The notes beneath the pieces were generated by a model. That model did not search any database. It was given only the letters and a program-made list of their open reading frames with translations, and had not been told where the DNA came from. A DNA stretch of 64,000 bases from Parcubacteria group bacterium Greene0714_7 (GTDB lineage: Bacteria; Patescibacteriota; Minisyncoccia; Phycocordibacterales; Phycocordibacteraceae), in the NCBI GenBank assembly GCA_007378985.1, contig VMHB01000005.1, forward strand, positions 9,235 to 73,234, written 5' to 3'. The number at the start of each line of letters is the position of its first letter. The stretch's first letter is position 1. Shown here in pieces: positions 3,742 through 54,917 of the stretch. Both the position numbers and the translations under genes were made by a program.

Positions 3742-5961
3742 TCACTTAGCAACCTTAACTGCCTCTTCCAATTTTACTGATAATACTTTTGATACGCCAT
3801 CGTTCCCCATAGTGATGCCGTAGAGGATTCCAGCGCGCGACATGGTTTCTCGGTTATGCGTAATTATGGCGAGCTGTGATTTTTTTGAAAGCGCCTCAAC
3901 CATGTCACCGTACCTGCGACTATTAGACTCATCGAGCGCGGCGTCGGTTTCATCCAGCATAAGAAATGGCGGAGGATTAACTGATGACATAGCAAAAATA
4001 AGTGCAATTGATGTGAGGGTTCTCTCACCACCTGAAAGCATTACCAAACTCTTCACACGCTTGCGGGGAATCGAGAGCGAGATATCAATACCTGAAGATG
4101 TTTCTTCCCTAAACATCTCTTCTCCGAGAAGAGATGTCGGGCGAACATCCCCCTGGGATGTTTTAGCCTCGCTATCTTCATCAAAATCGTTTTTTACTTT
4201 CCGGACTGATTCTTCAACACGCACAAGTGATGCTGAGCCTCCATCAAACATCAAAGCAAAGAGTTTAGTAAATTCGGAATTGATAGCATCAATTCCCTCT
4301 TTGAAACGAACACTGAGCTCAGCTTCAAGGTTTTGAATAAGACCTTTTAAAGAAACCGAGGCAGTGCCGAGATCGGCAAGTTCATGCTCTAGAAATGCCT
4401 CTCGCTCGCTCACTTCTTTATGCTCTTTCAGCACATCAGCACTTGCACCTGTGCCCATTTCCTCAAGACGAATCTTAGTCTTTTCAAGTTGACGCTTTTC
4501 TTCCACCTGTTCATCGCGTGACGCCGACAAAGAGACATCGGCATCAGGATACAAAAGAACCTCTCTACCAATAAGAGTACCCGCCTCCAGTAAATCTCGT
4601 TCAAATTCTGCCTTTTCAAGTCCGAGTCGACCTATTTCACCTTCTAGAATATTTATACGATGACGCACTTCGCGCTCTGCGGTAGCAAGACTAAACAATG
4701 CTCGCTCTTTTTCTCGCTCGTTCGTTCGAGCGCTATCAAGCTCTGCTCTTATTTTTTCCAACGACTCTCCGAGTTCCGTTTCTCTTTGTATGCATTCTTT
4801 TTCAGTATTCACCGCAAGCTCGCGCTCACGCTTCAAAAGTGCGACATCATTCGAATCTTCTGCCGTTTGTGCAGTAAGTGCTTTAAATCTACTGAAGTAC
4901 TCACGGAAAAATGAAAGCACTTCCTGAATAGGAGTATTTGAAAATCCACTAAGCGCTCTCTCACCCTCTTCAACTAAACGAGACACTTCTCCGAGAGGAA
5001 TACTTGCATTACTCATCGTGCGCTCCATTGCTTCAATTTGACCTTCAAGGCGTGAAGCTTTGCGAAGCGCATCAGCTCGCTTACTTCTTGCATCATCAAG
5101 TGCACCTGATATTTCAAGAATTGCTCCACCACGCTTATCTTCTTCAGAATGTGCGAGCGCTTGTTTTGCTTCAGCTACTTTACTCGCAATGTCTGCAAGC
5201 TCTTTTCTCTTCTCTAACAGTTCACTTTCAAACCCTCCACCTGCAGTTTTTAAATATGCCTCTTCTCTTTTAAAATATGATTGAAAACGAACAACTGCGG
5301 ACGCACGCAAGACTTCGGCCTTTTCGACTTTCTCAACTTGTTTTTTGAGGAAGCGTAAGTGTGGAGCAATTTCCCTTCGGAGTGCCTCTACTTGTCGCAT
5401 GTTCTCCTCGGTTTTTTCGAGCTTGCGTGAAGACTCTTCAAGTTTGTATTGATATGCCTTTAAGCCGAGTGCATCCTCCAGCATTTCCCTTCGCTCCTTC
5501 GGAGGTGCGGAAAGTATTTTGTCGGCTTCACCTTGCGAAATGATGTGATGCCCAGTGGCACCAATATTTGCTCCTGCAAGTAATTCCAGAATGTCTTTGA
5601 GACGCACCTGACTACCGTTTAATCGATATTCATTTACACCATCCCGATGCACTATTCGCTCAATAACTACCTCATCAAAGTCTAAATTCAAAAAGCGCGA
5701 TGCATTGTCAAAGGTTATAGCAACAGATGCACGGTTAGCTCGAGGCGTTGTGGCGGAGCCATTCCAAATCAAGTCTTCTCCGCGTTTCCCACGCATAGAC
5801 TTCATAGACTGTTCACCCAATACAAAACGAACCGCCTCGGCAACGTTAGATTTACCCGAGCCGTTCGGACCCACTATGGCAACAACCGATGTATTGAAAT
5901 CAAAGCTGGTCTTTTTTGCAAAAGACTTAAAGCCTGCAATGTCGAGACGAGTAAGATGCAT
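3742..5961 (-). CDS. smc: chromosome segregation ATPase SMC, compact 739 aa form
   Basis: N-term FKSF...GPNGSGKSN Walker A; C-term LSGGE...LDE signature/Walker B; long coiled-coil middle; shorter than canonical ~1180 aa. Confidence 0.75.
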   Translation of the reverse strand: MHLTRLDIAGFKSFAKKTSFDFNTSVVAIVGPNGSGKSNVAEAVRFVLGEQSMKSMRGKRGEDLIWNGSATTPRANRASVAITFDNASRFLNLDFDEVVIERIVHRDGVNEYRLNGSQVRLKDILELLAGANIGATGHHIISQGEADKILSAPPKERREMLEDALGLKAYQYKLEESSRKLEKTEENMRQVEALRREIAPHLRFLKKQVEKVEKAEVLRASAVVRFQSYFKREEAYLKTAGGGFESELLEKRKELADIASKVAEAKQALAHSEEDKRGGAILEISGALDDARSKRADALRKASRLEGQIEAMERTMSNASIPLGEVSRLVEEGERALSGFSNTPIQEVLSFFREYFSRFKALTAQTAEDSNDVALLKRERELAVNTEKECIQRETELGESLEKIRAELDSARTNEREKERALFSLATAEREVRHRINILEGEIGRLGLEKAEFERDLLEAGTLIGREVLLYPDADVSLSASRDEQVEEKRQLEKTKIRLEEMGTGASADVLKEHKEVSEREAFLEHELADLGTASVSLKGLIQNLEAELSVRFKEGIDAINSEFTKLFALMFDGGSASLVRVEESVRKVKNDFDEDSEAKTSQGDVRPTSLLGEEMFREETSSGIDISLSIPRKRVKSLVMLSGGERTLTSIALIFAMSSVNPPPFLMLDETDAALDESNSRRYGDMVEALSKKSQLAIITHNRETMSRAGILYGITMGNDGVSKVLSVKLEEAVKVAK

Positions 5962-6182
5962 TCAGAGATTATAACAGCCGAAAGCTTCTAGGTTCTAGGT
6001 GCTAGGTGCTAGCTTAAATTAGAATCACAAATACACATGTTTAAAGTTTTCTATATATCAGTTAACTGATATATAGAAATACGGCCTACAAAAATAGTAT
6101 TTCTACTTTGTGCTAAACCCGGGTTTAGCACACAAGACCTAAAGGCTTAAAAAGCTAGAAACTAACAGCTGGAACCTGACAC

Positions 6183-14474: not shown

Positions 14475-14536
14475 CCAGAGTCTCACCTGGGTCTCATTTA
14501 GAATGTAACGCGGGAGACTAAAAAATTATCATGTGA

Positions 14537-14564
14537 CTCCATATACGATATATCGTATATGGAG
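14537..14564 (+). repeat. 28-nt perfect palindrome ctccATATACGATATATCGTATATggag (copy 1 of 3)
   Basis: Read directly; the same 20-nt core recurs at ~35251 and ~35691. Confidence 0.7.
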
Positions 14565-14726
14565 TGAGCTACTGTGTGCTGTTGCCATATACGAACCTAT
14601 CGCAACGATAATTCTCTGTATGATATATCATACAGAGAATTCATTTCACTATAGTGAAAATCCCCCACATGGGAGACACACGATGTCTGCCATGACTATC
14701 CCTGTGCACCGGAGGTTGCACAGGGA

Positions 14727-23973: not shown

Positions 23974-24024
23974 CATGCTCTACCCACTGCTTCCAAAAAC
24001 AATCACAACAGTGAATACTGACGG

Positions 24025-24060
24025 TATAGTATAAATTAACGATCGTTAACTTATACTATA
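24025..24060 (+). repeat. 36-nt near-perfect palindrome TATAGTATAAATTAACGATCGTTAACTTATACTATA (family copy 1)
   Basis: One mismatch; a perfect 52-nt version lies at 31546..31597. Confidence 0.65.
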
Positions 24061-24185
24061 CAGCCTTAAATAACATAAAAAGAAAAATCCAGTGACAATA
24101 GCGCAACCTAGCAATTAAAAACCCTCCTTAATCAGAGAGTTTTTAATTTCTGTATTGATGTTAAAAAGCTAAACGCTAGCCCCTG

Positions 24186-28919: not shown

Positions 28920-30704
28920 TTATCGAACCTCCCAGTTTTTTTGAGTCACTGCCTTCGTTACTAAATCCATCCACCCACTTACTTCATCATCGGTGAGCGT
29001 TCTATCATCCGCTTGGAATACTAATCGAAATGCATACGAAGTTCTGCCGTCTTTAGAGAATGTATCGAAAAGCTCACACCGCACCAGTAGCGGTCCTGCA
29101 TTCTCCATTATGTGGGACCTCGTAGGTCCCACATCAGTGCCTTCGGGAGCCCAGAGGGCAATATCGCGGACAATAAAAGGATATACAGAGAAAGGCTGAT
29201 ACATACCGAGTTTATATTTTTTCGGTGTGTAATCTTTTCCATAGTCTTCAAGTTTTGCAATTGAAAGATTATCTACCGTGCCAGCGCCTTCTCCCCACGC
29301 AGAAACTCGTTCAGTCATGCGAAGCTCCACATATTCTCCCGCTTTAGGAAATACGGTGCCCACTTCAAAGAGTTTTAATTTTTCACCGGGCGACAGGAGA
29401 AGCGATTGATACTGCTTGCCTCGAGCGAGAGCGTCTTGAACTCCTATTTCAAGACTGGGACGAAGTGCCGGCATGGTTTTATCAAGCGGGTTCGCAAGAT
29501 ATTGCGTCGAAACTTCAACGAAGCCTTCCTCTACAAGCATGTCTTTCATCCGCTCAATACCTCGATAACGCGCTTGATCGGGTGCGGTGTTGAAGGTAGG
29601 CTCTACTCTAGGCACGCGATCATATCCCAAAATTCGCCCTACTTCCTCGATCAAATCTTCAGGAATCTTGAGATCAGTTCTTTCAAATGGGGGCGTTATG
29701 GTAAATGCATTTTCTGAAATGGAAACAGAAAGATCAAGTCGTTTAAAAACATCAGCGACTTCTTCTTTTAAGAAACCAGAACCAAGAAGTTGGTTAATAC
29801 GGTCGAGCGTGATCGAAACATCGATAGGCGTATCTTGAGGTTTATTACGAATGTCTACCACCCCAACCACTTCCCCTCCTGCAACCTGCTTGATGAGAGA
29901 AAGAATCGCCTGCATACCATACACAGTTAATTCAGGGGACGGACGATTTTGAAATCGTTGAGACGCATCCGTAAAGAGCTTTAATTTTTGTGAAGCCTTA
30001 CGAATGAGCGTACCGTCGTAATTTCCTGCAGAAATAAAGAGATCTTTTGTTTCGCTCGTGACTCCAGACGAGAACCCTCCTTTAATGCCAGCAATGTCGA
30101 GAAGCGATCCGCCGACTGCGTCGGAAAATGTAAACATCTCTTCCGTGAGTGTATATTCTTCGCCCGTGAGCACCTTTATTTTCTCACCTGCTTTCGCACG
30201 ACGAATATCTACCTTTACAACACCATTATCATCCTTTATTTTCGCAAGATCAAAAGCGCCTGATGGCTGACCGATATCAAGAAGCACATAGTTGAGTACA
30301 TCAACAACGTTATTGATTGATCGCTGTCCCACAGACTCGAGTGCACTCTTTAGCCACTCGGGCGAAGGCCCAACAGTAACTCCACGAACAAGTGCGCCCG
30401 TGTGCCGAAGCGTGTATGCAGGATCTGCCGTCACCATAAGTGTGTCGGTTTTCGGAAATTCAGGGATGGGTGCACGAAGTGGATCCGATTTTAAGGGGAG
30501 ATTAAGGATTGCAGAAATTTCTTTTGCGACACCACGATGCGACAAACAATCTGCGGCCCGATTTGGAAGTACTTTCACATCCATCGAAACCTCTTCAAGA
30601 TCCTCTATCTCGAATGCGTGGAATGTGAGCGCGTCCGCAATATCCTTCGGGCTCGGGAGCGGCGCGTCAAAGTATTTCTGTAGCCATGCAGTTGAAACTT
30701 TCAT
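28920..30704 (-). CDS. pheT: phenylalanyl-tRNA synthetase beta subunit (shortened)
   Basis: 594 aa; MKVSTAWLQKYF N-terminus; B3/4 and B5 domains; carries an in-frame copy of the 25-nt palindrome near the C-terminus. Confidence 0.85.
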   Translation of the reverse strand: MKVSTAWLQKYFDAPLPSPKDIADALTFHAFEIEDLEEVSMDVKVLPNRAADCLSHRGVAKEISAILNLPLKSDPLRAPIPEFPKTDTLMVTADPAYTLRHTGALVRGVTVGPSPEWLKSALESVGQRSINNVVDVLNYVLLDIGQPSGAFDLAKIKDDNGVVKVDIRRAKAGEKIKVLTGEEYTLTEEMFTFSDAVGGSLLDIAGIKGGFSSGVTSETKDLFISAGNYDGTLIRKASQKLKLFTDASQRFQNRPSPELTVYGMQAILSLIKQVAGGEVVGVVDIRNKPQDTPIDVSITLDRINQLLGSGFLKEEVADVFKRLDLSVSISENAFTITPPFERTDLKIPEDLIEEVGRILGYDRVPRVEPTFNTAPDQARYRGIERMKDMLVEEGFVEVSTQYLANPLDKTMPALRPSLEIGVQDALARGKQYQSLLLSPGEKLKLFEVGTVFPKAGEYVELRMTERVSAWGEGAGTVDNLSIAKLEDYGKDYTPKKYKLGMYQPFSVYPFIVRDIALWAPEGTDVGPTRSHIMENAGPLLVRCELFDTFSKDGRTSYAFRLVFQADDRTLTDDEVSGWMDLVTKAVTQKNWEVR

Positions 30705-31436: not shown

Positions 31437-31447
31437 ATAGAGAAGAG

Positions 31448-31490
31448 TATACCCCCACACCTTTTAATTCTGAAAAGGTGTGGGGGTATA
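31448..31490 (-). promoter_or_regulatory. perfect 18-bp-stem hairpin 12 nt upstream of the pheS start codon; identical element upstream of the next gene
   Basis: tatacccccacacctttt / aattctg / aaaaggtgtgggggtata, then tatactcttctctatATG. Confidence 0.55.
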
Positions 31491-31545
31491 CCCCGTGAGG
31501 TAAATCATTTAAACACTACTCGCCTCCTAGGGTTTACAGTACCAA

Positions 31546-31597
31546 AAAGACTGTATAGTATAATTTAACGATCGTTAAATTATACTATACAGTCTTT
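31546..31597 (+). repeat. 52-nt perfect palindrome AAAGACTGTATAGTATAATTTAACGAT|CGTTAAATTATACTATACAGTCTTT
   Basis: Verified by reverse-complementing half-sites; family member at 24025. Confidence 0.7.
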
Positions 31598-31646: not shown

Positions 31647-32501
31647 CTAAAAGCCTGAGATATCGTAGAAGGCCGACCCGTCCTTCACAATCAAAGCACC
31701 ATTCACAATCCGAAACTGAGCCCCTGGTCTACTGTAGAGAGGGACAACGAGAGGAACCGGGCGAACATCATTTTCTGCAAGAAAGATTCCAGATTCTTTT
31801 GTTGAATACACTACGCCACCTGCAAAAAATTGTGCATGAGTGGTTGTCTCTCTACCTTTTTCAATAAAAAATTCCTGAACACAAGAAGAGGGTTTAATAC
31901 AAAATGAGCTCGGTACAGACTGCGGATCCTTCATCCATCTCACAATAAGATTGCCATCCTCGATATACAGTTCCGCCCCAGCACGAGTGTCAACTGGCGT
32001 CGATGTCGCCATACCTCCCTGAGTTGGCGCAGAAACTATTTTACGTGCAAAAGCTTTTACGAATGTATTATATTCATTCTTTGAAACAGCCCGAGTTGTC
32101 GATGCAGTATCCCCTTCTCGTATTTCAATCTCACGAATCAAAGTCGATTGAGGAACAAGGAAAGCAAAAACATCGGTGACGATACGTGCCTCTACAGTCA
32201 ACTTCTTTACCCAAGGATAGTATCCTTCACGAGATACCTGCACAGCATAGGTTCCAGCAATAAGGTTGTCAGTATAAAACGAACGAGTAAAAAGACTGCT
32301 CACACCCTCCTCCTTTCCATTAATGAAAACGCTCGCATCAGATAATGGCACAGAAACATACACTCCCCCAGTTTCAACAAAAGAAAGCCCGTTAAAACGG
32401 TATCCAGATGCATAAAAAACAGCGACGGGTACGGTGAAAAGAAAAGCGGTGATGGAAACAGCAAGATATATGAAGCGTGTTCGGCGCGAAAGAGGTTTCA
32501 T
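31647..32501 (-). CDS. membrane-anchored PEGA-domain protein
   Basis: Start MKPLSRR + TM; GTYAVQVSREGYYPWVKKLTV PEGA-like motif; ORF-track N-term MWGYTILY is translation of the hairpin repeat. Confidence 0.5.
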   Translation of the reverse strand: MKPLSRRTRFIYLAVSITAFLFTVPVAVFYASGYRFNGLSFVETGGVYVSVPLSDASVFINGKEEGVSSLFTRSFYTDNLIAGTYAVQVSREGYYPWVKKLTVEARIVTDVFAFLVPQSTLIREIEIREGDTASTTRAVSKNEYNTFVKAFARKIVSAPTQGGMATSTPVDTRAGAELYIEDGNLIVRWMKDPQSVPSSFCIKPSSCVQEFFIEKGRETTTHAQFFAGGVVYSTKESGIFLAENDVRPVPLVVPLYSRPGAQFRIVNGALIVKDGSAFYDISGF

Positions 32502-32512
32502 GTAGAGAATAG

Positions 32513-32555
32513 TATACCCCCACACCTTTTCAGAATGAAAAGGTGTGGGGGTATA
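32513..32555 (-). promoter_or_regulatory. second copy of the 18-bp-stem hairpin, 12 nt upstream of the PEGA gene start
   Basis: Same stems, loop cagaatg; followed by tatactattctctacATG. Confidence 0.55.
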
Positions 32556-32567
32556 CCCCGTGAGATG

Positions 32568-35250: not shown

Positions 35251-35270
35251 ATATACGATATATCGTATAT
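35251..35270 (+). promoter_or_regulatory. 20-nt perfect palindrome ATATACGATATATCGTATAT overlapping the start codon of the TrpR/YerC-like gene
   Basis: Read directly; last nucleotides overlap the ATG at 35269. Confidence 0.6.
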
Positions 35271-35688
35271 GCCACATATATCCAAGCATCGACTGACACA
35301 AGAAACAAAGCAAGAACTTGAAGACCGGGTATTTGCATTCCTTTTCGATACACAAATGAGAGATCGTAAGAAGATATTCCGTGAACTTTTCACTCGAACG
35401 GAACGCACCATGATTGCAAAACGACTCACATTAATCTTTCTTATCTCACAAGAACTCCCGCCATACAGCATTAGTCGTGTTCTCAAGATGAGCCCATCTT
35501 CCGTTGCTCGTTTTCAAAAAGCCTTGAACAAGGGCGAATACGCTGCCACTTCATTATGGCTGAAGCCAAAAGGTATACGAGGGCAATTTCTATCTTTCTT
35601 CGACGATGTTGCTGATGTGCTTTTCAGTGGCAAGCGCAAATCAATAGCGCAGATTCTTAAAGATAATGAAGCGAGGGGTACATTCTAA
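35269..35688 (+). CDS. TrpR/YerC-like helix-turn-helix DNA-binding protein
   Basis: 139 aa; TERTMIAKRLTLIFLISQELPPYSISRVLKMSPSSVARFQKAL HTH resembling the Trp-repressor-like YerC/YecD family. Confidence 0.55.
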   Translation: MPHISKHRLTQETKQELEDRVFAFLFDTQMRDRKKIFRELFTRTERTMIAKRLTLIFLISQELPPYSISRVLKMSPSSVARFQKALNKGEYAATSLWLKPKGIRGQFLSFFDDVADVLFSGKRKSIAQILKDNEARGTF

Positions 35689-35719
35689 ATATATACGATA
35701 TATCGTATATATTTAGAAT
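35682..35719 (+). promoter_or_regulatory. 38-nt perfect palindrome ATTCTAAATATATACGATATATCGTATATATTTAGAAT spanning the stop codon of the TrpR-like gene
   Basis: Verified palindrome; third copy of the ATATACGATATATCGTATAT core. Confidence 0.65.
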
Positions 35720-48264: not shown

Positions 48265-48270
48265 CACATT

Positions 48271-48298
48271 CCTATATATCAGTTAACTGATATATAGG
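48271..48298 (+). repeat. 28-nt perfect palindrome CCTATATATCAGTTAACTGATATATAGG between convergent tal and tkt genes (copy 2; copy 1 at 6049..6078)
   Basis: Read directly; AT-rich, so more likely a protein-binding or REP-like site than an intrinsic terminator. Confidence 0.65.
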
Positions 48299-48320
48299 AA
48301 ACGCATCGGATTTAAAACAG

Positions 48321-52602: not shown

Positions 52603-52640
52603 CCCGTGATTTTAACACGCTTAGTTTTCTCATCCCCACA

Positions 52641-53395
52641 CAATGTTCGACTTCGTAAGTCGAACATTGTAGAATAAAGTAAAGAATTATGGATCTGTAC
52701 CATGCACTTAATCGTGGAGTCGAAAAGAAAGATATTTTTCTTGATACGCAAGACTATGCACGTTTTGTGCACGATTTGTATGTATTCAATGATATTCGCC
52801 CAGCAGAAAATACGCGTCGCAACCTACAACCTCAAATGTTCGACTTACGAAGTCGAACATTTGAGAAGAGGGAGAAATTAGTGGAGCTGCACGGTTGGTG
52901 CTTAATGCGGAACCACTATCACCTGCTTCTATCAGAAAAAAGTGAAGGCGGTATTGCCAAATTCCTTCGAAAATTAAATATAGGGTATGCAAAATACTTC
53001 AATGAAAAATACGAACGGAATGGGTATGTATTTAGCGGACGGACGAAAAAAGTACTGATAGAAAATGACGCTCAATTCAACTATATCCTTCACTACATTC
53101 ATTTGAATCCACTTGATTATCTGAAAGGTGCTGAAGAGTGGAGAATACGGAGTAAAGGTGGTATCAAAAACCTGAAGGATGCGCTAGCGTACCTTAAATC
53201 CTACCGCTGGAGTAGTTACCTTGATTACATTGGGGAACAAAACTTCCCTTCTATACTTACCACTTCTCTTTTTGGAGAGCCATCAGGAAGTTACGAAAAA
53301 ACTATAGAGAAGTATCTGAAAGGTGCCGAACATACTGAGCTCAAATCAAACTCAATCGCGTTAGAATGATGTGGGACCTACGAGGTCCCACATAT
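52641..53395 (+). mobile_element. RAYT-like unit: Y1 (IS200-like) transposase gene flanked by two related 25-nt palindromes (ATGTTCGACTTCGTAAGTCGAACAT upstream, ATGTGGGACCTACGAGGTCCCACAT downstream)
   Basis: Both palindromes share ATGTnnGACn...nGTCnnACAT; inverted-orientation copies occur inside the RAYT CDS (~52836) and inside pheT (~29113). Confidence 0.6.
52689..53369 (+). CDS. IS200/IS605-family Y1 (HUH) transposase, REP-associated tyrosine transposase-like
   Basis: 226 aa; YHALNRGVEKKDIF...LMRNHYHLLL (HUH motif)...NYILHYIHLNP (candidate catalytic Tyr helix). Confidence 0.7.
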   Translation: MDLYHALNRGVEKKDIFLDTQDYARFVHDLYVFNDIRPAENTRRNLQPQMFDLRSRTFEKREKLVELHGWCLMRNHYHLLLSEKSEGGIAKFLRKLNIGYAKYFNEKYERNGYVFSGRTKKVLIENDAQFNYILHYIHLNPLDYLKGAEEWRIRSKGGIKNLKDALAYLKSYRWSSYLDYIGEQNFPSILTTSLFGEPSGSYEKTIEKYLKGAEHTELKSNSIALE

Positions 53396-53411: not shown

Positions 53412-54347
53412 TTAGCGGATTTGAACACGACCTCCGCGAATGAGAAAACGACCTCCTTTTATTTTGAATTTTGCTAGAGAGGTACTGCCAGTTTCAGTTG
53501 AGGTGTAGGTGATGATGATGAGTCCGCCAGCGCCGTTGCCACCACTGCCAGCAAACCCATTGGCATCGCAACGCGCCCCACCTCCTCCTGCCCCACCACC
53601 ATAATTTCCTCCATTGCCACCGTTACCACCGCTAAATGCTCCCGGCCCTGCTGAACCTCCTACACCACCTCCACCGCCGGAACCATATCCTGGGGTAGTG
53701 CTGTATTCGTAGCCTGGATACCCAACTCCACCAGCGCCCCCGTCAGAAGGAAGATCAGGACAAAAATCAAATCCTCCGTCACCATTGAAACCACCAAAAC
53801 CAGCATCAGCATATCCTGTGACTACCTGTCCAGCGCCATTTGGTCCTGCCGCATTCCCCCCCCAACTCGCTCCATCGCTTCCACTATATTTAACGGTTCC
53901 AACTGAAGCCGCTGCGGTCCCTCCAGTTCCATTAGTTGAACCCGAAGCAGTTGTACCCCCCTTTGCACACACAGAAGGAGTTGGAGAACCAGCACAGGTG
54001 GTAGCCGTAGTATTAAAAACAGTATCAGAAGTCGCAATAACTCGATAGGTCACACTTGCGCCTGCAGTTAAATCAAGATTACTTATACTGGCGTACGCAC
54101 CACCACCACCGCCACCACCGCCAACGTTCGCCGAACCTCCGTGCCCACCACCGCCAATTGTCTCAATAGTGTCAACATCTGACCAATCGGCAGGAACTGT
54201 CCAGCTGGTTCCAGAAGTTAGGAAAACTCTTTTTGAAAGTGCGGCGTGAGCTTCATGCTGAGGAGTAATGAATGTGCTACCAAGAAAAACAAAAACACCA
54301 AAAACAAAAAGGTGGGCAAGGCCGTGTAATGTTTTTTCTATATTCAT
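53412..54347 (-). CDS. secreted glycine-rich protein (311 aa)
   Basis: Signal peptide; long Gly-rich stretches; poly-G DNA tract (9 G) immediately 3' of the stop. Confidence 0.45.
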   Translation of the reverse strand: MNIEKTLHGLAHLFVFGVFVFLGSTFITPQHEAHAALSKRVFLTSGTSWTVPADWSDVDTIETIGGGGHGGSANVGGGGGGGGAYASISNLDLTAGASVTYRVIATSDTVFNTTATTCAGSPTPSVCAKGGTTASGSTNGTGGTAAASVGTVKYSGSDGASWGGNAAGPNGAGQVVTGYADAGFGGFNGDGGFDFCPDLPSDGGAGGVGYPGYEYSTTPGYGSGGGGGVGGSAGPGAFSGGNGGNGGNYGGGAGGGGARCDANGFAGSGGNGAGGLIIITYTSTETGSTSLAKFKIKGGRFLIRGGRVQIR

Positions 54348-54727: not shown

Positions 54728-54917
54728 TTTCTATCTAATTCTATTACGCTTTTTGCAGAGCATATAACTTACTCAACAACAGAATTGGAATCAACGCCAG
54801 TGATCAGCCCCCATGTTGGGTTTACGAAACCCAACATTTGAAACGGGGGGGGTCGAACTGGTCGACATACGATGTCTGCCATGGGGGTGTTCATACTACT
54901 CATACTAAGGAGAGTTT

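What the first reader, a model, noticed from the sequence alone, without database searches (positions are those of the whole stretch)
52641..53395. IS200-like Y1 transposase (RAYT-type) flanked by two related 25-nt palindromes, with inverted copies elsewhere including inside coding sequences
The ORF has the HUH motif (HYHLLL) and the IS200/TnpA_REP fold signature. It is bracketed by ATGTTCGACTTCGTAAGTCGAACAT (~52643) and ATGTGGGACCTACGAGGTCCCACAT (~53370), which share the skeleton ATGTnnGACn-7nt-nGTCnnACAT. Each has a second copy in the opposite orientation, with the loop inverted: one at ~52836 inside the RAYT gene itself, in frame and encoding PQMFDLRSRTFEKRE as an apparent loop insertion relative to canonical IS200 TnpA, and one at ~29113 inside pheT, encoding GTDVGPTRSHI. 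REP/RAYT systems are known mainly from Proteobacteria. A RAYT whose cognate REPs are tolerated inside essential ORFs would be unusual in a reduced genome.
Basis: partly seen in the sequence, partly recalled or inferred. Interest (0 to 1): 0.6.

Follow-up and report, generated by a model that had tools for sequence, protein, structure and literature searches.

The report
Hairpin-studded RAYT-like gene in CPR bacterium
A single-strand-DNA-cutting enzyme gene in a tiny-genome (Patescibacteria) bacterium carries its own 25-base hairpin over its promoter, inside its coding sequence and at its stop codon; this layout recurs in dozens of related genomes, and related hairpins sit in frame in essential genes such as pheT.

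Summary
The ORF is a Y1 HUH enzyme whose best fold match is the E. coli REP-associated transposase. By sequence it fits the "subclass 2.1 / TIRYT-like" branch, not canonical RAYTs.

The new point is that the in-gene hairpin is not a stray insertion. In 52 of 78 homologous Patescibacteria loci the same hairpin sits at three fixed places: the -35/spacer of a leaderless promoter, codons ~50-58 in a disordered loop, and the stop codon. The three copies stay identical within a locus while stems differ between loci.

Other results:
- The locus is syntenic (next to gap), but the gene and its hairpins diverge far faster than the flanks.
- Hairpin type follows the N-terminal catalytic core.
- One relative has an empty site.
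- The pheT hairpin causes no length change. It recurs at the same codons in ~30% of orthologues and shows a compensatory double change in a 96%-identical relative.
- Identical hairpins lie in frame in tgt, uvrC, trmD and holB-like genes elsewhere.

Verdict: a new variant of the known REP/RAYT (REPtron) kind, with precedents for intragenic REPs. Function is inferred, not shown.

The parts
52640..52670 (.). Hairpin site 1: ACA-ATGTTCGACTT-CGT-AAGTCGAACAT-TGT (core 52643-52667). It lies between the divergent gap gene and the RAYT-like gene and overlaps the -35/spacer of the latter's promoter.
   Evidence: 39.7 bits. The same position relative to the ATG is occupied in 69/83 homologous genes.
52647..52675 (+). 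Promoter-like site: TCGACT, 17-nt spacer, TAGAAT. The ATG is 13 nt after the -10 box, so the leader is very short or absent.
   Evidence: In homologues, TAnnnT (TATACT/TATAAT/TAGAAT) is present in 52/67 and lies 6-8 nt before the ATG in 43/52.
52689..53369 (+). RAYT/TIRYT-like Y1 HUH endonuclease gene, 226 aa.
   Evidence: Pfam Y1_Tnp 28.2 bits, above the cut-off of 23. 100% identical to a protein of 'Parcubacteria group bacterium Greene0714_7'. AlphaFold core pLDDT 77-93. Best PDB fold match 4er8_A, E. coli RAYT with REP hairpin, E=4e-6.
52914..52922 (+). HUH motif codons H76-Y77-H78 (NHYHLLL).
   Evidence: H76 and H78 are invariant in 32 homologues.
53094..53096 (+). Candidate catalytic tyrosine Y136, in the YIHLNP class-2 'Y---NP' motif.
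   Evidence: Y136, H138, L139, N140 and P141 are invariant. The motif definition comes from Quentin et al. 2018.
52831..52865 (.). Hairpin site 2: CTCAA-ATGTTCGACTT-ACG-AAGTCGAACAT-TTGAG (core 52836-52860). It is the reverse complement of site 1, in frame, encoding M50-F58 (MFDLRSRTF) in the disordered loop between helix 1 and strand 2.
   Evidence: The loop has pLDDT <50. An internal hairpin is present at +146..+173 in 66/84 homologues.
53369..53393 (.). Hairpin site 3: ATGTGGGACCT-ACG-AGGTCCCACAT. It starts on the last base of the TGA stop. Its stem type differs from sites 1 and 2. It is also the only terminator-like site after the gene.
   Evidence: 40 bits. Site 3 is present in 70/79 homologues, with median start 2 nt after the stop and mode -4, where the ATGA foot supplies the TGA.
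29110..29134 (.). Dispersed copy of the site-3 hairpin type, in reverse orientation. It lies in frame in pheT (ORF 28920-30704, minus strand) and encodes DVGPTRSHI in the C-terminal FDX-ACB domain.
   Evidence: A relative with 96% identical PheT has ATGTGGGACTT-ACG-AAGTCCCACAT at the same place, a compensatory double change.
54813..54837 (.). Fifth perfect family member, ATGTTGGGTTT-ACG-AAACCCAACAT. It is intergenic, between two minus-strand genes.
   Evidence: 39.1 bits. The orthologous spot in L084 holds a hairpin with a different stem, ATGTGGGACAT.
54862..54884 (.). 5'-truncated relic hairpin: ...GTCGACAT-ACG-ATGTCTGCCAT, the right half of the ATGGCAGACAT type.
   Evidence: partial hit 54864-54876, 13.9 bits. 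ATGGCAGACAT is the cognate hairpin of the RAYT allele in relatives L083 and L003.
14669..14693 (.). Decayed family member, ATGGGAGACAC-ACG-ATGTCTGCCAT (9/11 pairs, ATGGCAGACAT type), in a 690-nt intergenic region.
   Evidence: (17.9 bits, E=0.005).

Best explanation
This is a compact REPtron-like unit of a Patescibacteria (Paceibacteria) genome. It consists of a low-copy, largely vertically inherited class-2 Y1 HUH single-strand-DNA endonuclease gene (RAYT/TIRYT-like) together with its cognate 25-nt perfect 'double-foot' hairpin: ATG-NNN-G-R-Y-N-T, a CGT loop, then the complementary arm ending in CAT.

SHOWN:
- The hairpin occupies three fixed places: over the -35/spacer of the gene's own leaderless promoter, in frame at codons ~50-58 in a disordered loop, and at the stop codon.
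- The three copies in a locus are kept identical, in either orientation, while the stem differs between loci and paralogues.
- Hairpin type travels with the N-terminal catalytic core.
- The locus is syntenic, but the gene and hairpins turn over much faster than the flanks.
- Related hairpins occur sparsely in intergenic DNA and in frame in housekeeping genes, where they are replaced or compensated so that the palindrome stays perfect.

INFERRED:
- The enzyme binds these hairpins when DNA is single-stranded and cuts and rejoins next to them, as E. coli TnpA_REP does with REPs.
- This activity, and/or short-patch conversion between copies, writes the current hairpin over older ones. That would keep the three local copies in step and update the dispersed ones.
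- Because the local copies cover the promoter, the early coding region and the stop codon, they most likely also throttle the gene's own expression (self-limitation). This last step is the least supported.
For: Enzyme identity:
- Pfam Y1_Tnp is above its cut-off.
- HUH and Y---NP are invariant.
- The best fold match is 4er8, RAYT with REP, followed by IS608 and ISDra2 TnpA.

Architecture:
- Perfect-hairpin scan of 84 genes and a relaxed scan: site 1 in 69/83, site 2 in 66/84, site 3 in 70/79, all three in 52/78, none in 4.
- In 1.09 Mb of loci, 106 of 280 hairpins with a 3-nt loop have ACG/CGT loops.

Concerted evolution:
- Within a locus, site 1 and site 3 differ by <=1 nt in 76% of loci. Between loci the figure is 1%.
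- Shared mismatches are copied, and flipped copies are exact reverse complements (L005, L017, L055, L061).

Promoter and stop geometry.

Domestication-like behaviour:
- Two conserved synteny contexts; gap lies upstream in 19 loci.
- Within-genome paralogues are at most 78% identical, median 62%.

Fast turnover:
- In L083, GAPDH is 94% and the Gly-rich neighbour 94% identical, but RAYT is 75% and the cognate stem differs (identity profile).
- Hairpin type follows residues 1-126. L083 vs L003 is 95-96% at the N-terminus and 77% at the C-terminus. L001 vs L002 is 92-100% vs 81%.
- Relic hairpins of another allele lie in the window at 14669 and 54862.

Dispersal in coding sequence:
- pheT shows a compensatory change.
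- 36 of 120 PheT orthologues carry a hairpin-type peptide at the same codons.
- The identical 25-mer lies in frame in tgt, holB-like, uvrC, trmD, a SAM methyltransferase and a ComF-like gene in metagenomes.

DNA level rather than mRNA level:
- Site 1 lies upstream of the likely transcription start.
- Mismatches show no excess of G-U on the sense strand.
Against: - No biochemical evidence; cleavage sites are unknown.
- The window's own cognate stem (TTCGACTT) is not found anywhere else in the 64 kb. Dispersed family hairpins are sparse: roughly 25-30 in 1.1 Mb of loci. This is far from the hundreds typical of REPs, so 'REP proliferation' is weak here.
- The NCBIfam RAYT model is below its cut-off, and there is no GTAG guide.
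- Loop orientation at the three sites varies freely between loci. A strand-specific mechanism must accommodate that.
- The autoregulation step rests only on position.
- All relatives are MAGs. Collapsed repeats could hide identical copies.
- The loci analysed are the 78 most similar of 296 confirmed by the genome scan.
- The pairing statistics of the model alignment are circular, because the sequences were selected for pairing.
Confidence: 0.7

Rival explanations
1. The whole cassette, from hairpin 1 through the gene to hairpin 3 (about 790 bp), is an autonomous IS200-like or TIRtron-like insertion sequence. The flanking hairpins are its left and right ends, and it moves or excises as a unit.
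For: - The size and layout resemble IS200: one small Y1 gene with subterminal hairpins at both ends.
- Several genomes hold 2-5 copies.
- L107 and L108 (GAPDH 87% identical) have an empty site: 45 nt between the Gly-rich gene and gap, where the window has the cassette.
- The cassette is far more divergent than its flanks, as if replaced.
Against: - The same syntenic position next to gap is kept in 19 loci, across RAYT identities from 44% to 77%.
- Paralogues within a genome are at most 78% identical, each with its own stem. IS200 copies are ~99% identical (Quentin 2018).
- The Y motif is Y---NP, not the IS200 Y---Q.
- Replacement tracts are mosaic inside the gene: the N-terminal module is exchanged and site 3 is left behind. 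That looks like recombination, not transposition.
- The empty site is nested among RAYT-bearing relatives, so a deletion is equally likely.
Confidence: 0.12
2. The enzyme-hairpin partnership is real, but the in-gene hairpin (site 2) and the in-frame copies in pheT and other genes have no function. They are passengers in permissive loops, kept perfect only because conversion from other copies is frequent.
For: - The hairpin-encoded peptide has no conserved amino-acid sequence. It is read in two frames and both orientations.
- It lies in a disordered loop.
- 18 of 84 genes have let it decay without changing loop length.
- Published precedent treats intragenic REPs as tolerated insertions.
Against: - Retention at one position in 66/84 genes over deep divergence (54-77% identity), together with fixed sites 1 and 3, is more than a passenger would be expected to show.
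- At least 21 state changes at the same pheT codons, with no length change, suggests targeting or selection.
Confidence: 0.3
3. The hairpins are ordinary host regulatory elements: operators of a dimeric double-strand-DNA-binding protein, or terminators and mRNA stabilisers. Their association with the Y1 gene is incidental.
For: - Perfect odd palindromes are typical operator shapes.
- Hairpin 3 scores as terminator-like, and hairpin 1 overlaps a promoter.
- REPs elsewhere act on mRNA stability (literature cited).
Against: - The stem sequence changes with the RAYT allele and tracks its catalytic core.
- Each paralogue has a private stem.
- Copies lie inside coding regions of unrelated housekeeping genes.
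- Mismatches show no sense-strand G-U bias.
- Site 1 is probably not transcribed.
Confidence: 0.05

Closest known systems
REPtron: E. coli-type TnpA_REP (RAYT) flanked by its REP/BIME sequences (Nunvar 2010; Ton-Hoang 2012; Messing 2012, PDB 4ER8)
   Same: - Y1 HUH fold; 4er8 is the best hit.
- Y---NP motif.
- The gene is bracketed by its own cognate palindromes.
- One stem family per paralogue.
- Low copy number and synteny.
- Some head-to-head doublets, like REPINs.
   Different: - No GT[AG]G guide; the foot is a base-paired ATG/CAT.
- The stems are perfect 11-bp stems with a fixed 3-nt loop.
- Very low genomic copy number.
- There is a third, in-frame copy at a fixed codon position.
- The NCBIfam RAYT model is below its cut-off.
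- The phylum is Patescibacteria.
TnpA_Y1 subclass 2.1 (Quentin et al. 2018), equal to Bertels group 1 RAYTs and to TIRYT/TIRtrons (Di Nocera 2013)
   Same: - Motifs NH[YF]H, FQ, Y[IV]HLNP.
- C-terminal tail with the 'SS' motif (RWSSY).
- Length ~230 aa.
- About 2 divergent copies per genome.
   Different: - That subclass was reported to have no REP-like hairpins near the gene and to be flanked by TIRs (GGGGWSAS). Here cognate hairpins flank and enter the gene, and only a weak G-run/C-run lies outside them.
- No HTH or DnaA_C-like Pfam domain was detected in the tail.
TnpA_Y1 subclass 2.4 (Cyanobacteria/Bacteroidetes): 'double-foot' REPs, and REPs inserted in frame inside tnpA_REP
   Same: - A REP lies inside the transposase gene without breaking the frame, in a peripheral loop.
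- The palindromes are double-foot.
   Different: - The motifs differ: subclass 2.4 has NH[IFV]H/WQ/YIxNNP.
[quoted passage not shown] Here there is one fixed position before HuH, family-wide, co-ordinated with promoter and stop-codon copies.
Rickettsia palindromic elements (RPE) and intragenic REPs of other bacteria (Ogata 2000; Di Nocera 2013)
   Same: Palindromic repeats sit in frame in housekeeping genes, including tRNA synthetases and repair genes, of a reduced genome.
   Different: - The elements here are 25 nt, not ~100-150 bp.
- In pheT there is no length change.
- They are linked to resident Y1 genes.
- The stem is updated with compensatory changes.
IS200 (IS200/IS605 family)
   Same: A single small Y1 gene of ~0.7-0.8 kb with hairpins at both ends. 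A hairpin next to the start of the gene could limit expression.
   Different: - The Y motif is Y---NP, not Y---Q.
- There are no near-identical copies.
- The location is syntenic.
- There is an extra internal hairpin.

Membership tests
Y1 HUH transposase superfamily (Pfam PF01797) | Match to the family model above the curated threshold | tested here: met
   Y1_Tnp scores 28.2 bits against a cut-off of 23, E=2e-6, over residues 62-138.
Y1 HUH transposase superfamily (Pfam PF01797) | HUH motif and a single catalytic tyrosine on the following helix | tested here: met
   H76-Y77-H78 and Y136 are invariant in 32 homologues.
Y1 HUH transposase superfamily (Pfam PF01797) | TnpA fold | tested here: met
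   Foldseek against the PDB: 4er8_A E=4e-6, followed by IS608, ISDra2 and IS200 TnpA, all with probability 1.00. The core of the model has pLDDT 77-93; the C-terminus is poor. A PDB search by sequence alone found nothing.
RAYT / TnpA_REP (class 2 of Quentin 2018) | Y motif Y---NP (as opposed to the IS200 Y---Q) | tested here: met
   YIHLNP is invariant.
RAYT / TnpA_REP (class 2 of Quentin 2018) | NCBIfam equivalog REP_Tyr_transpos (NF047646) above its cut-off | tested here: not met
   35.1 bits against a cut-off of 80.
RAYT / TnpA_REP (class 2 of Quentin 2018) | Gene flanked by its own cognate palindromes (REPtron) | tested here: met
   The window has sites 1 and 3. Among homologues, site 1 is present in 69/83 and site 3 in 70/79. 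The same stem is found within a locus in 76% of cases, against 1% between loci.
RAYT / TnpA_REP (class 2 of Quentin 2018) | 5' GT[AG]G guide tetranucleotide at the hairpin foot | tested here: not met
   The feet are ATG...CAT and base-paired (alignment A2).
RAYT / TnpA_REP (class 2 of Quentin 2018) | Cognate palindrome highly over-represented across the genome | tested here: inconclusive
   Only 64 kb of this genome is available. The cognate stem TTCGACTT occurs only at the gene. There are five family members in the window and ~25-30 dispersed copies in 1.1 Mb of relatives. The copy number is low, comparable to Bertels group 1 at ~12.
RAYT / TnpA_REP (class 2 of Quentin 2018) | Low copy number, divergent paralogues, vertical inheritance | tested here: met
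   Synteny with gap in 19 loci. Paralogues are at most 78% identical. Caveats: allele replacement and an empty site.
RAYT / TnpA_REP (class 2 of Quentin 2018) | Hairpin-specific ssDNA cleavage and rejoining | not testable with these tools
   Requires biochemistry.
Subclass 2.1 / TIRYT | Motifs NH[YF]H, FQ, Y[IV]HLNP and the 'SS' tail motif; length ~238 aa | tested here: met
   NHYH; F-S in the window but F-Q in the family consensus (TLFQGR); YIHLNP; YRWSSY; 226 aa (against the table). This was a comparison of motifs, not a search with the authors' HMMs.
Subclass 2.1 / TIRYT | C-terminal HTH-like domain (Bac_DnaA_C / HTH_23 / HTH_28) | tested here: not met
   The Pfam scan at E<=1 returns only Y1_Tnp.
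Subclass 2.1 / TIRYT | No REP-like hairpins; flanked by TIRs with GGGGWSAS | tested here: not met
   Hairpins are present at three sites. Outside them there is only a partial match, GGGGATGAG / GGGGATAG (7/8), found in some loci.
Subclass 2.4 (REPs inside tnpA_REP) | [quoted passage not shown] | tested here: not met
   The motifs differ, and the internal hairpin lies before HuH at codons 50-58.
IS200/IS605 insertion sequence | Multiple near-identical copies; Y---Q motif | tested here: not met
   Maximum within-genome identity is 77.8% and the motif is Y---NP. Caveat: MAG assemblies may collapse repeats.
IS200/IS605 insertion sequence | Presence/absence polymorphism with defined ends | tested here: inconclusive
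   L107 and L108 have an empty site, but no target-site signature was identified and a deletion is equally possible.

The most novel reading that the evidence does not exclude
The Y1 enzyme is a natural 'hairpin writer'. It repeatedly overwrites about 25-27 nt at preferred sites with its current cognate hairpin, in frame and without length change. The sites include its own promoter, its own coding sequence, its own stop codon and fixed codons of housekeeping genes; pheT shows at least 21 gains or losses at one site. Specificity modules (N-terminal core plus hairpins) are swapped between strains at a fixed locus. On this reading it would be a self-targeting, self-limiting ssDNA-editing system under rapid specificity turnover, rather than a decaying transposon.
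Probability: 0.15. Interest if true: 0.85.

Novelty: new variant of a known kind. Interest (0 to 1): 0.6.

Why it matters
REP/RAYT systems are the best-known case of a domesticated transposase living with its own repeat family, yet their function is still unknown.

Here the partnership appears in a stripped-down form in ultra-small Patescibacteria genomes, and in the Y1 subclass that was thought to have no hairpins. The cognate hairpin is hard-wired into the gene's promoter, reading frame and stop codon. The three copies evolve in concert. Specificity is carried on an exchangeable N-terminal module.

That gives a compact and testable system: one 226-aa protein and one 25-mer. It could be used to ask how Y1 enzymes recognise hairpins, how enzyme and repeat co-evolve, and whether such enzymes regulate themselves.

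The recurrent, length-neutral, in-frame hairpins in pheT, tgt, uvrC, trmD and other genes also matter for annotation and phylogenetics of CPR genomes. They parallel the Rickettsia RPE story in a second reduced-genome lineage.

Tried and rejected
- **PDB by sequence.** A profile of 32 homologues gave no significant hit. Only fold comparison linked the protein to 4ER8.
- **mRNA-structure hypothesis.** Mismatches in imperfect hairpins show no excess of G-U on the sense strand: site 2 has 8 GT against 17 AC, site 3 has 6 against 8. Site 1 lies upstream of the likely start. An RNA-level function is therefore not favoured.
- **Invertible or excisable 5' segment between sites 1 and 2.** I looked for inverted or truncated arrangements. 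The only truncated copy (L065, 11131-11529) is a plain 5'-deleted pseudogene next to another ORF. No evidence was found.
- **Hairpin 2 as an insertion.** Loop length is the same with and without the hairpin, 32 against 31 aa. Rejected.
- **pheT hairpin as an insertion.** There is no length change in 120 orthologues. Rejected.
- **TIRYT-type terminal repeats (GGGGWSAS).** Only partial G-run/C-run matches lie outside the hairpins. Not convincing.
- **Literature.** Searches for REP/RAYT/RPE together with Patescibacteria or CPR found nothing relevant.
- **Limits.** The rest of this genome could not be reached, so genome-wide counts of the two 25-mers in this organism were not possible. As a substitute, one stem type was traced in public metagenomes.
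Full report
**1. Observation**

The window belongs to 'Parcubacteria group bacterium Greene0714_7'.

The ORF 52689-53369(+) encodes 226 aa.
- 52643-52667, loop CGT.
- 52836-52860, same stem, loop ACG, in frame as M50-F58.
- 53369-53393, a different stem, loop ACG, starting on the last base of the stop codon.
- 29110-29134, the same stem as the third, loop CGT, inside pheT.

Chance expectation for the skeleton pattern is 0.21, and 0 of 100 shuffles reach the observed 5.

A fifth perfect member is at 54813-54837. Decayed ones are at 14669-14693 and ~54862-54884. A covariance model built from 50 family hairpins finds exactly these and nothing else of the family in 64 kb.

**2. The protein**

- Pfam Y1_Tnp is above its threshold.
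- The NCBIfam RAYT equivalog is well below its threshold, 35 against 80 bits.
- H76-Y77-H78 and Y136 in YIHLNP are invariant.
- An AlphaFold model has a confident core (pLDDT 77-93) and a disordered stretch at residues 41-58 that contains the hairpin-encoded peptide.
- Its best PDB neighbour is 4er8, the E. coli REP-associated transposase bound to a REP hairpin, followed by IS608 and ISDra2 TnpA. Sequence alone finds no solved relative.
- Against the published classification (Quentin et al. 2018, PMC6006769), the motifs NHYH / FQ / YIHLNP / RWSSY and the length fit subclass 2.1 (Bertels group 1, TIRYT-like). That subclass was reported to have no REP-like hairpins.

**3. The three-site layout is a property of the family**

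The protein has about 3900 relatives, and the top 120 are all 57-77% identical. Their alignment shows a hypervariable loop encoding peptides such as MNDLVGRSF, NVGFTKPYI and DVGGTTSHI. These are palindromes read in different frames.

I fetched 78 homologous loci from species-representative genomes, all Patescibacteria MAGs, and scanned 84 genes.

| Site | Position relative to the ATG | Genes with a family hairpin |
|---|---|---|
| 1 | about -20 to -40 | 69/83 |
| 2 | +146 to +173, in the CDS | 66/84 |
| 3 | at or just after the stop | 70/79 |
| All three | | 52/78 |
| None | | 4 |

Stems and loops:
- The stem differs from locus to locus (ATGAACGACCT, ATGTTGGGTTT, ATGAAAGACCT, ATGTCGGGACGT and others). 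Within a locus it is the same at all sites. Site 1 and site 3 differ by <=1 nt in 76% of loci, against 1% for pairs taken from different loci.
- Imperfect hairpins share the same mismatch at all three sites, and flipped copies are exact reverse complements including the mismatch (L005, L017, L055, L061). The 25-mer is therefore copied as a unit, in either orientation.
- Loops are CGT/ACG, less often CGG/CCG or CAG/CTG. In 1.09 Mb of loci they account for 106 of 280 hairpins with a 3-nt loop.
- G7-C19 and T11-A15 are invariant. The ATG/CAT foot is nearly so, and positions 4-6 vary most. The pairing statistics are circular, because the sequences were selected for pairing.

Geometry:
- Site 1 ends a median of 16 nt before the ATG.
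- A -10-like TAnnnT (TATACT, TATAAT, TAGAAT) follows the hairpin in 52/67 loci and lies 6-8 nt before the ATG in 43/52. The hairpin therefore covers the -35/spacer of a leaderless promoter.
- Site 3 most often starts 4 nt before the end of the stop codon, so the ATGA foot supplies the TGA. The invariant C-terminal Leu-Glu-stop reflects a conserved TYGAAT(G/A)A at the foot.
- Site 2 is read with ATG as a codon (48 genes) or shifted by one base (18 genes), never in the third frame, and in both orientations.
- Genes lacking a recognisable site 2 have loops of the same length that look like decayed hairpins, so the internal copy is ancestral to the subfamily.

A more distant paralogue subfamily (33-42% identity) is also bracketed by private hairpins of other types. 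One member also has an internal copy.

**4. Inheritance and turnover**

The gene sits in conserved contexts. A divergent gap gene lies ~100 nt upstream in 19 loci, including the window. A second context covers 13-17 other loci.

Paralogues within a genome are at most 78% identical, median 62%, each with its own stem. That is unlike an IS.

Yet in close relatives with the same synteny, the gene and its hairpins diverge far more than the flanks:

| Locus | GAPDH identity to window | Gly-rich neighbour | RAYT identity | Cognate stem |
|---|---|---|---|---|
| window | - | - | - | ATGTTCGACTT at sites 1 and 2; ATGTGGGACCT at site 3 |
| L083 | 94% | 94% | 75% | ATGGCAGACAT |
| L084 | 94% | 68% | 76% | ATGAACGACCT |

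DNA identity falls from 85-93% in the flanks to ~50% at sites 1 and 3, and to 52-77% in the 5' third of the gene.

Hairpin type follows the N-terminal catalytic core, not the host:
- L083 vs L003: 95-96% over residues 1-62, 77% over residues 127-226.
- L001 vs L002: 92-100% vs 81%.

So a 'specificity module', made of site 1, the core and site 2, is exchanged by recombination. The window and L001 are chimeras that kept an older site 3.

The two decayed hairpins in the window are of the ATGGCAGACAT type, which is the allele found in L083 and L003.

At the orthologous intergenic spot, the window and L084 carry hairpins with different stems.

L107 and L108 (GAPDH 87% identical) have an empty site: 45 nt between the Gly-rich gene and gap, where the window has ~790 nt more. 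Because RAYT-bearing relatives bracket them, loss is as likely as insertion.

**5. Hairpins inside housekeeping genes**

In pheT the hairpin causes no length difference among 120 orthologues.

A relative with 96% identical PheT has ATGTGGGACTT-ACG-AAGTCCCACAT in otherwise near-identical DNA. This is a compensatory double change that turns Pro-Thr-Arg into Leu-Thr-Lys.

36 of 120 orthologues carry a hairpin-type peptide at the same codons, with the same variety of stems as seen at RAYT loci. The rest share an unrelated, conserved pattern. On a neighbour-joining tree this needs at least 21 state changes. The tree is only a rough guide. At least P0131 and P0139 look mosaic, with a C-terminal domain close to the window's.

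A metagenome scan for ATGTGGGACCT-NNN-AGGTCCCACAT found 21 stretches:
- three RAYT triples;
- two pheT copies;
- in-frame copies in tgt, a DNA polymerase III delta'-like gene, a SAM methyltransferase, a ComF-like gene, uvrC and trmD, some as adjacent doublets.

**6. Mechanism**

What is shown is the anatomy, the concerted evolution, the tracking of stem by catalytic core, and the DNA-level maintenance of palindromes.

What is inferred, from the established mechanism of Y1 HUH enzymes (TnpA_REP, IS608):
- The protein recognises the hairpin on single-stranded DNA and cuts and rejoins beside it.
- This activity, or short-patch conversion, overwrites older hairpins and keeps the three cis copies identical.

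The three copies cover the promoter, the early coding region and the stop codon. That position suggests they limit the gene's own expression, but position is the only evidence.

An mRNA-level role is not favoured, because there is no sense-strand G-U bias and site 1 lies upstream of the likely start. Rivals are weighed in their own section.

**7. Comparison and novelty**

Already published:
- REPtrons.
- Double-foot REPs.
- REPs inside tnpA_REP genes (subclass 2.4).
- In-frame palindromes in essential genes (Rickettsia RPE and others).

I found nothing on Patescibacteria.

New here:
- The phylum.
- The occurrence in the subclass said to lack hairpins.
- The fixed promoter / in-frame / stop-codon triad with concerted evolution.
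- The modular allele turnover at a syntenic locus.
- The recurrent, length-neutral hairpin at fixed codons of pheT.

I rate it a new variant of a known kind, of moderate to good interest.

Noticed in passing
window 31447-31491 and 32512-32556: There are two copies of a different, long perfect palindrome: GTATACCCCCACACCTTTT(CA), loop, then the complement, with 19-21-bp stems. They sit at gene junctions on either side of the ORF 31647-32525(-). The orthologous junction in relatives L079 and L081 has the same palindrome with the loop flipped (GAA vs TTC). This is a second hairpin family, unrelated in sequence to the RAYT hairpins.
   Followed up: partly
window 6048-6079, 48269-48300, 14536-14565, 14610-14641, 24024-24061, 31546-31597, 35251-35270, 35682-35719: There are several AT-rich perfect palindromes without a loop, sharing cores such as ATATACGATATATCGTATAT or CTATATATCAGTTAACTGATATATAG. 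They may be bidirectional promoter or operator sites, or another repeat family. They score weakly with the hairpin model only because they are palindromic.
   Followed up: no
L016 17242-17778, L033 2708-3226, L058 14442-13774, L069 14046-13642, L075 836-1372, L078 11259-11768: A second, distant subfamily of Y1 genes (33-42% identity, CLMPNHFHLLL / YIHLNP / YSSY) occurs in the same genomes. Each gene is bracketed at about -80 and +640 by its own private hairpin of a different type, for example TGTCGAACAC-TCG-, AGATTGAGGT-TTA-, or a 20-bp GC-rich stem. The L016 copy also has an in-frame internal hairpin.
   Followed up: partly
L107 2956-3000 and L108 (GCA_040384425 and a Logan contig): Between the Gly-rich gene and gap there is an empty site of 45 nt, with a small imperfect palindrome, where the window carries the ~790-nt RAYT cassette. 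The cassette's outer flanks in the window are a C-run and a G-run: CCCCACACA before hairpin 1 and GGGGGGGG after hairpin 3.
   Followed up: partly
P0131 and P0139 (PheT orthologues) compared with window 28920-30704: The C-terminal ~80 residues (FDX-ACB domain, including the hairpin peptide DVGPTRSHI) are nearly identical to the window's, while the whole proteins are only 62-66% identical. This suggests mosaic pheT genes produced by recombination around the hairpin.
   Followed up: no
L097 ~5270-5330, L104 1439-1491, L019 ~5390-5440, L066 +748..+800 after the RAYT gene: Adjacent hairpins of the same or different stem types are separated by 3 nt (CTG/CAG/ATA/TTG). They form larger palindromes (REPIN-like doublets), and some lie in frame inside tgt and a DNA polymerase III delta'-like gene.
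   Followed up: partly
window 53412-54347 (-): The convergent neighbour is a secreted-looking glycine-rich protein (Pfam Gly_rich_2, weak, in the L083 orthologue). It is 94% conserved in one close relative but only 68% in another, with the divergence concentrated in the Gly-rich middle.
   Followed up: no
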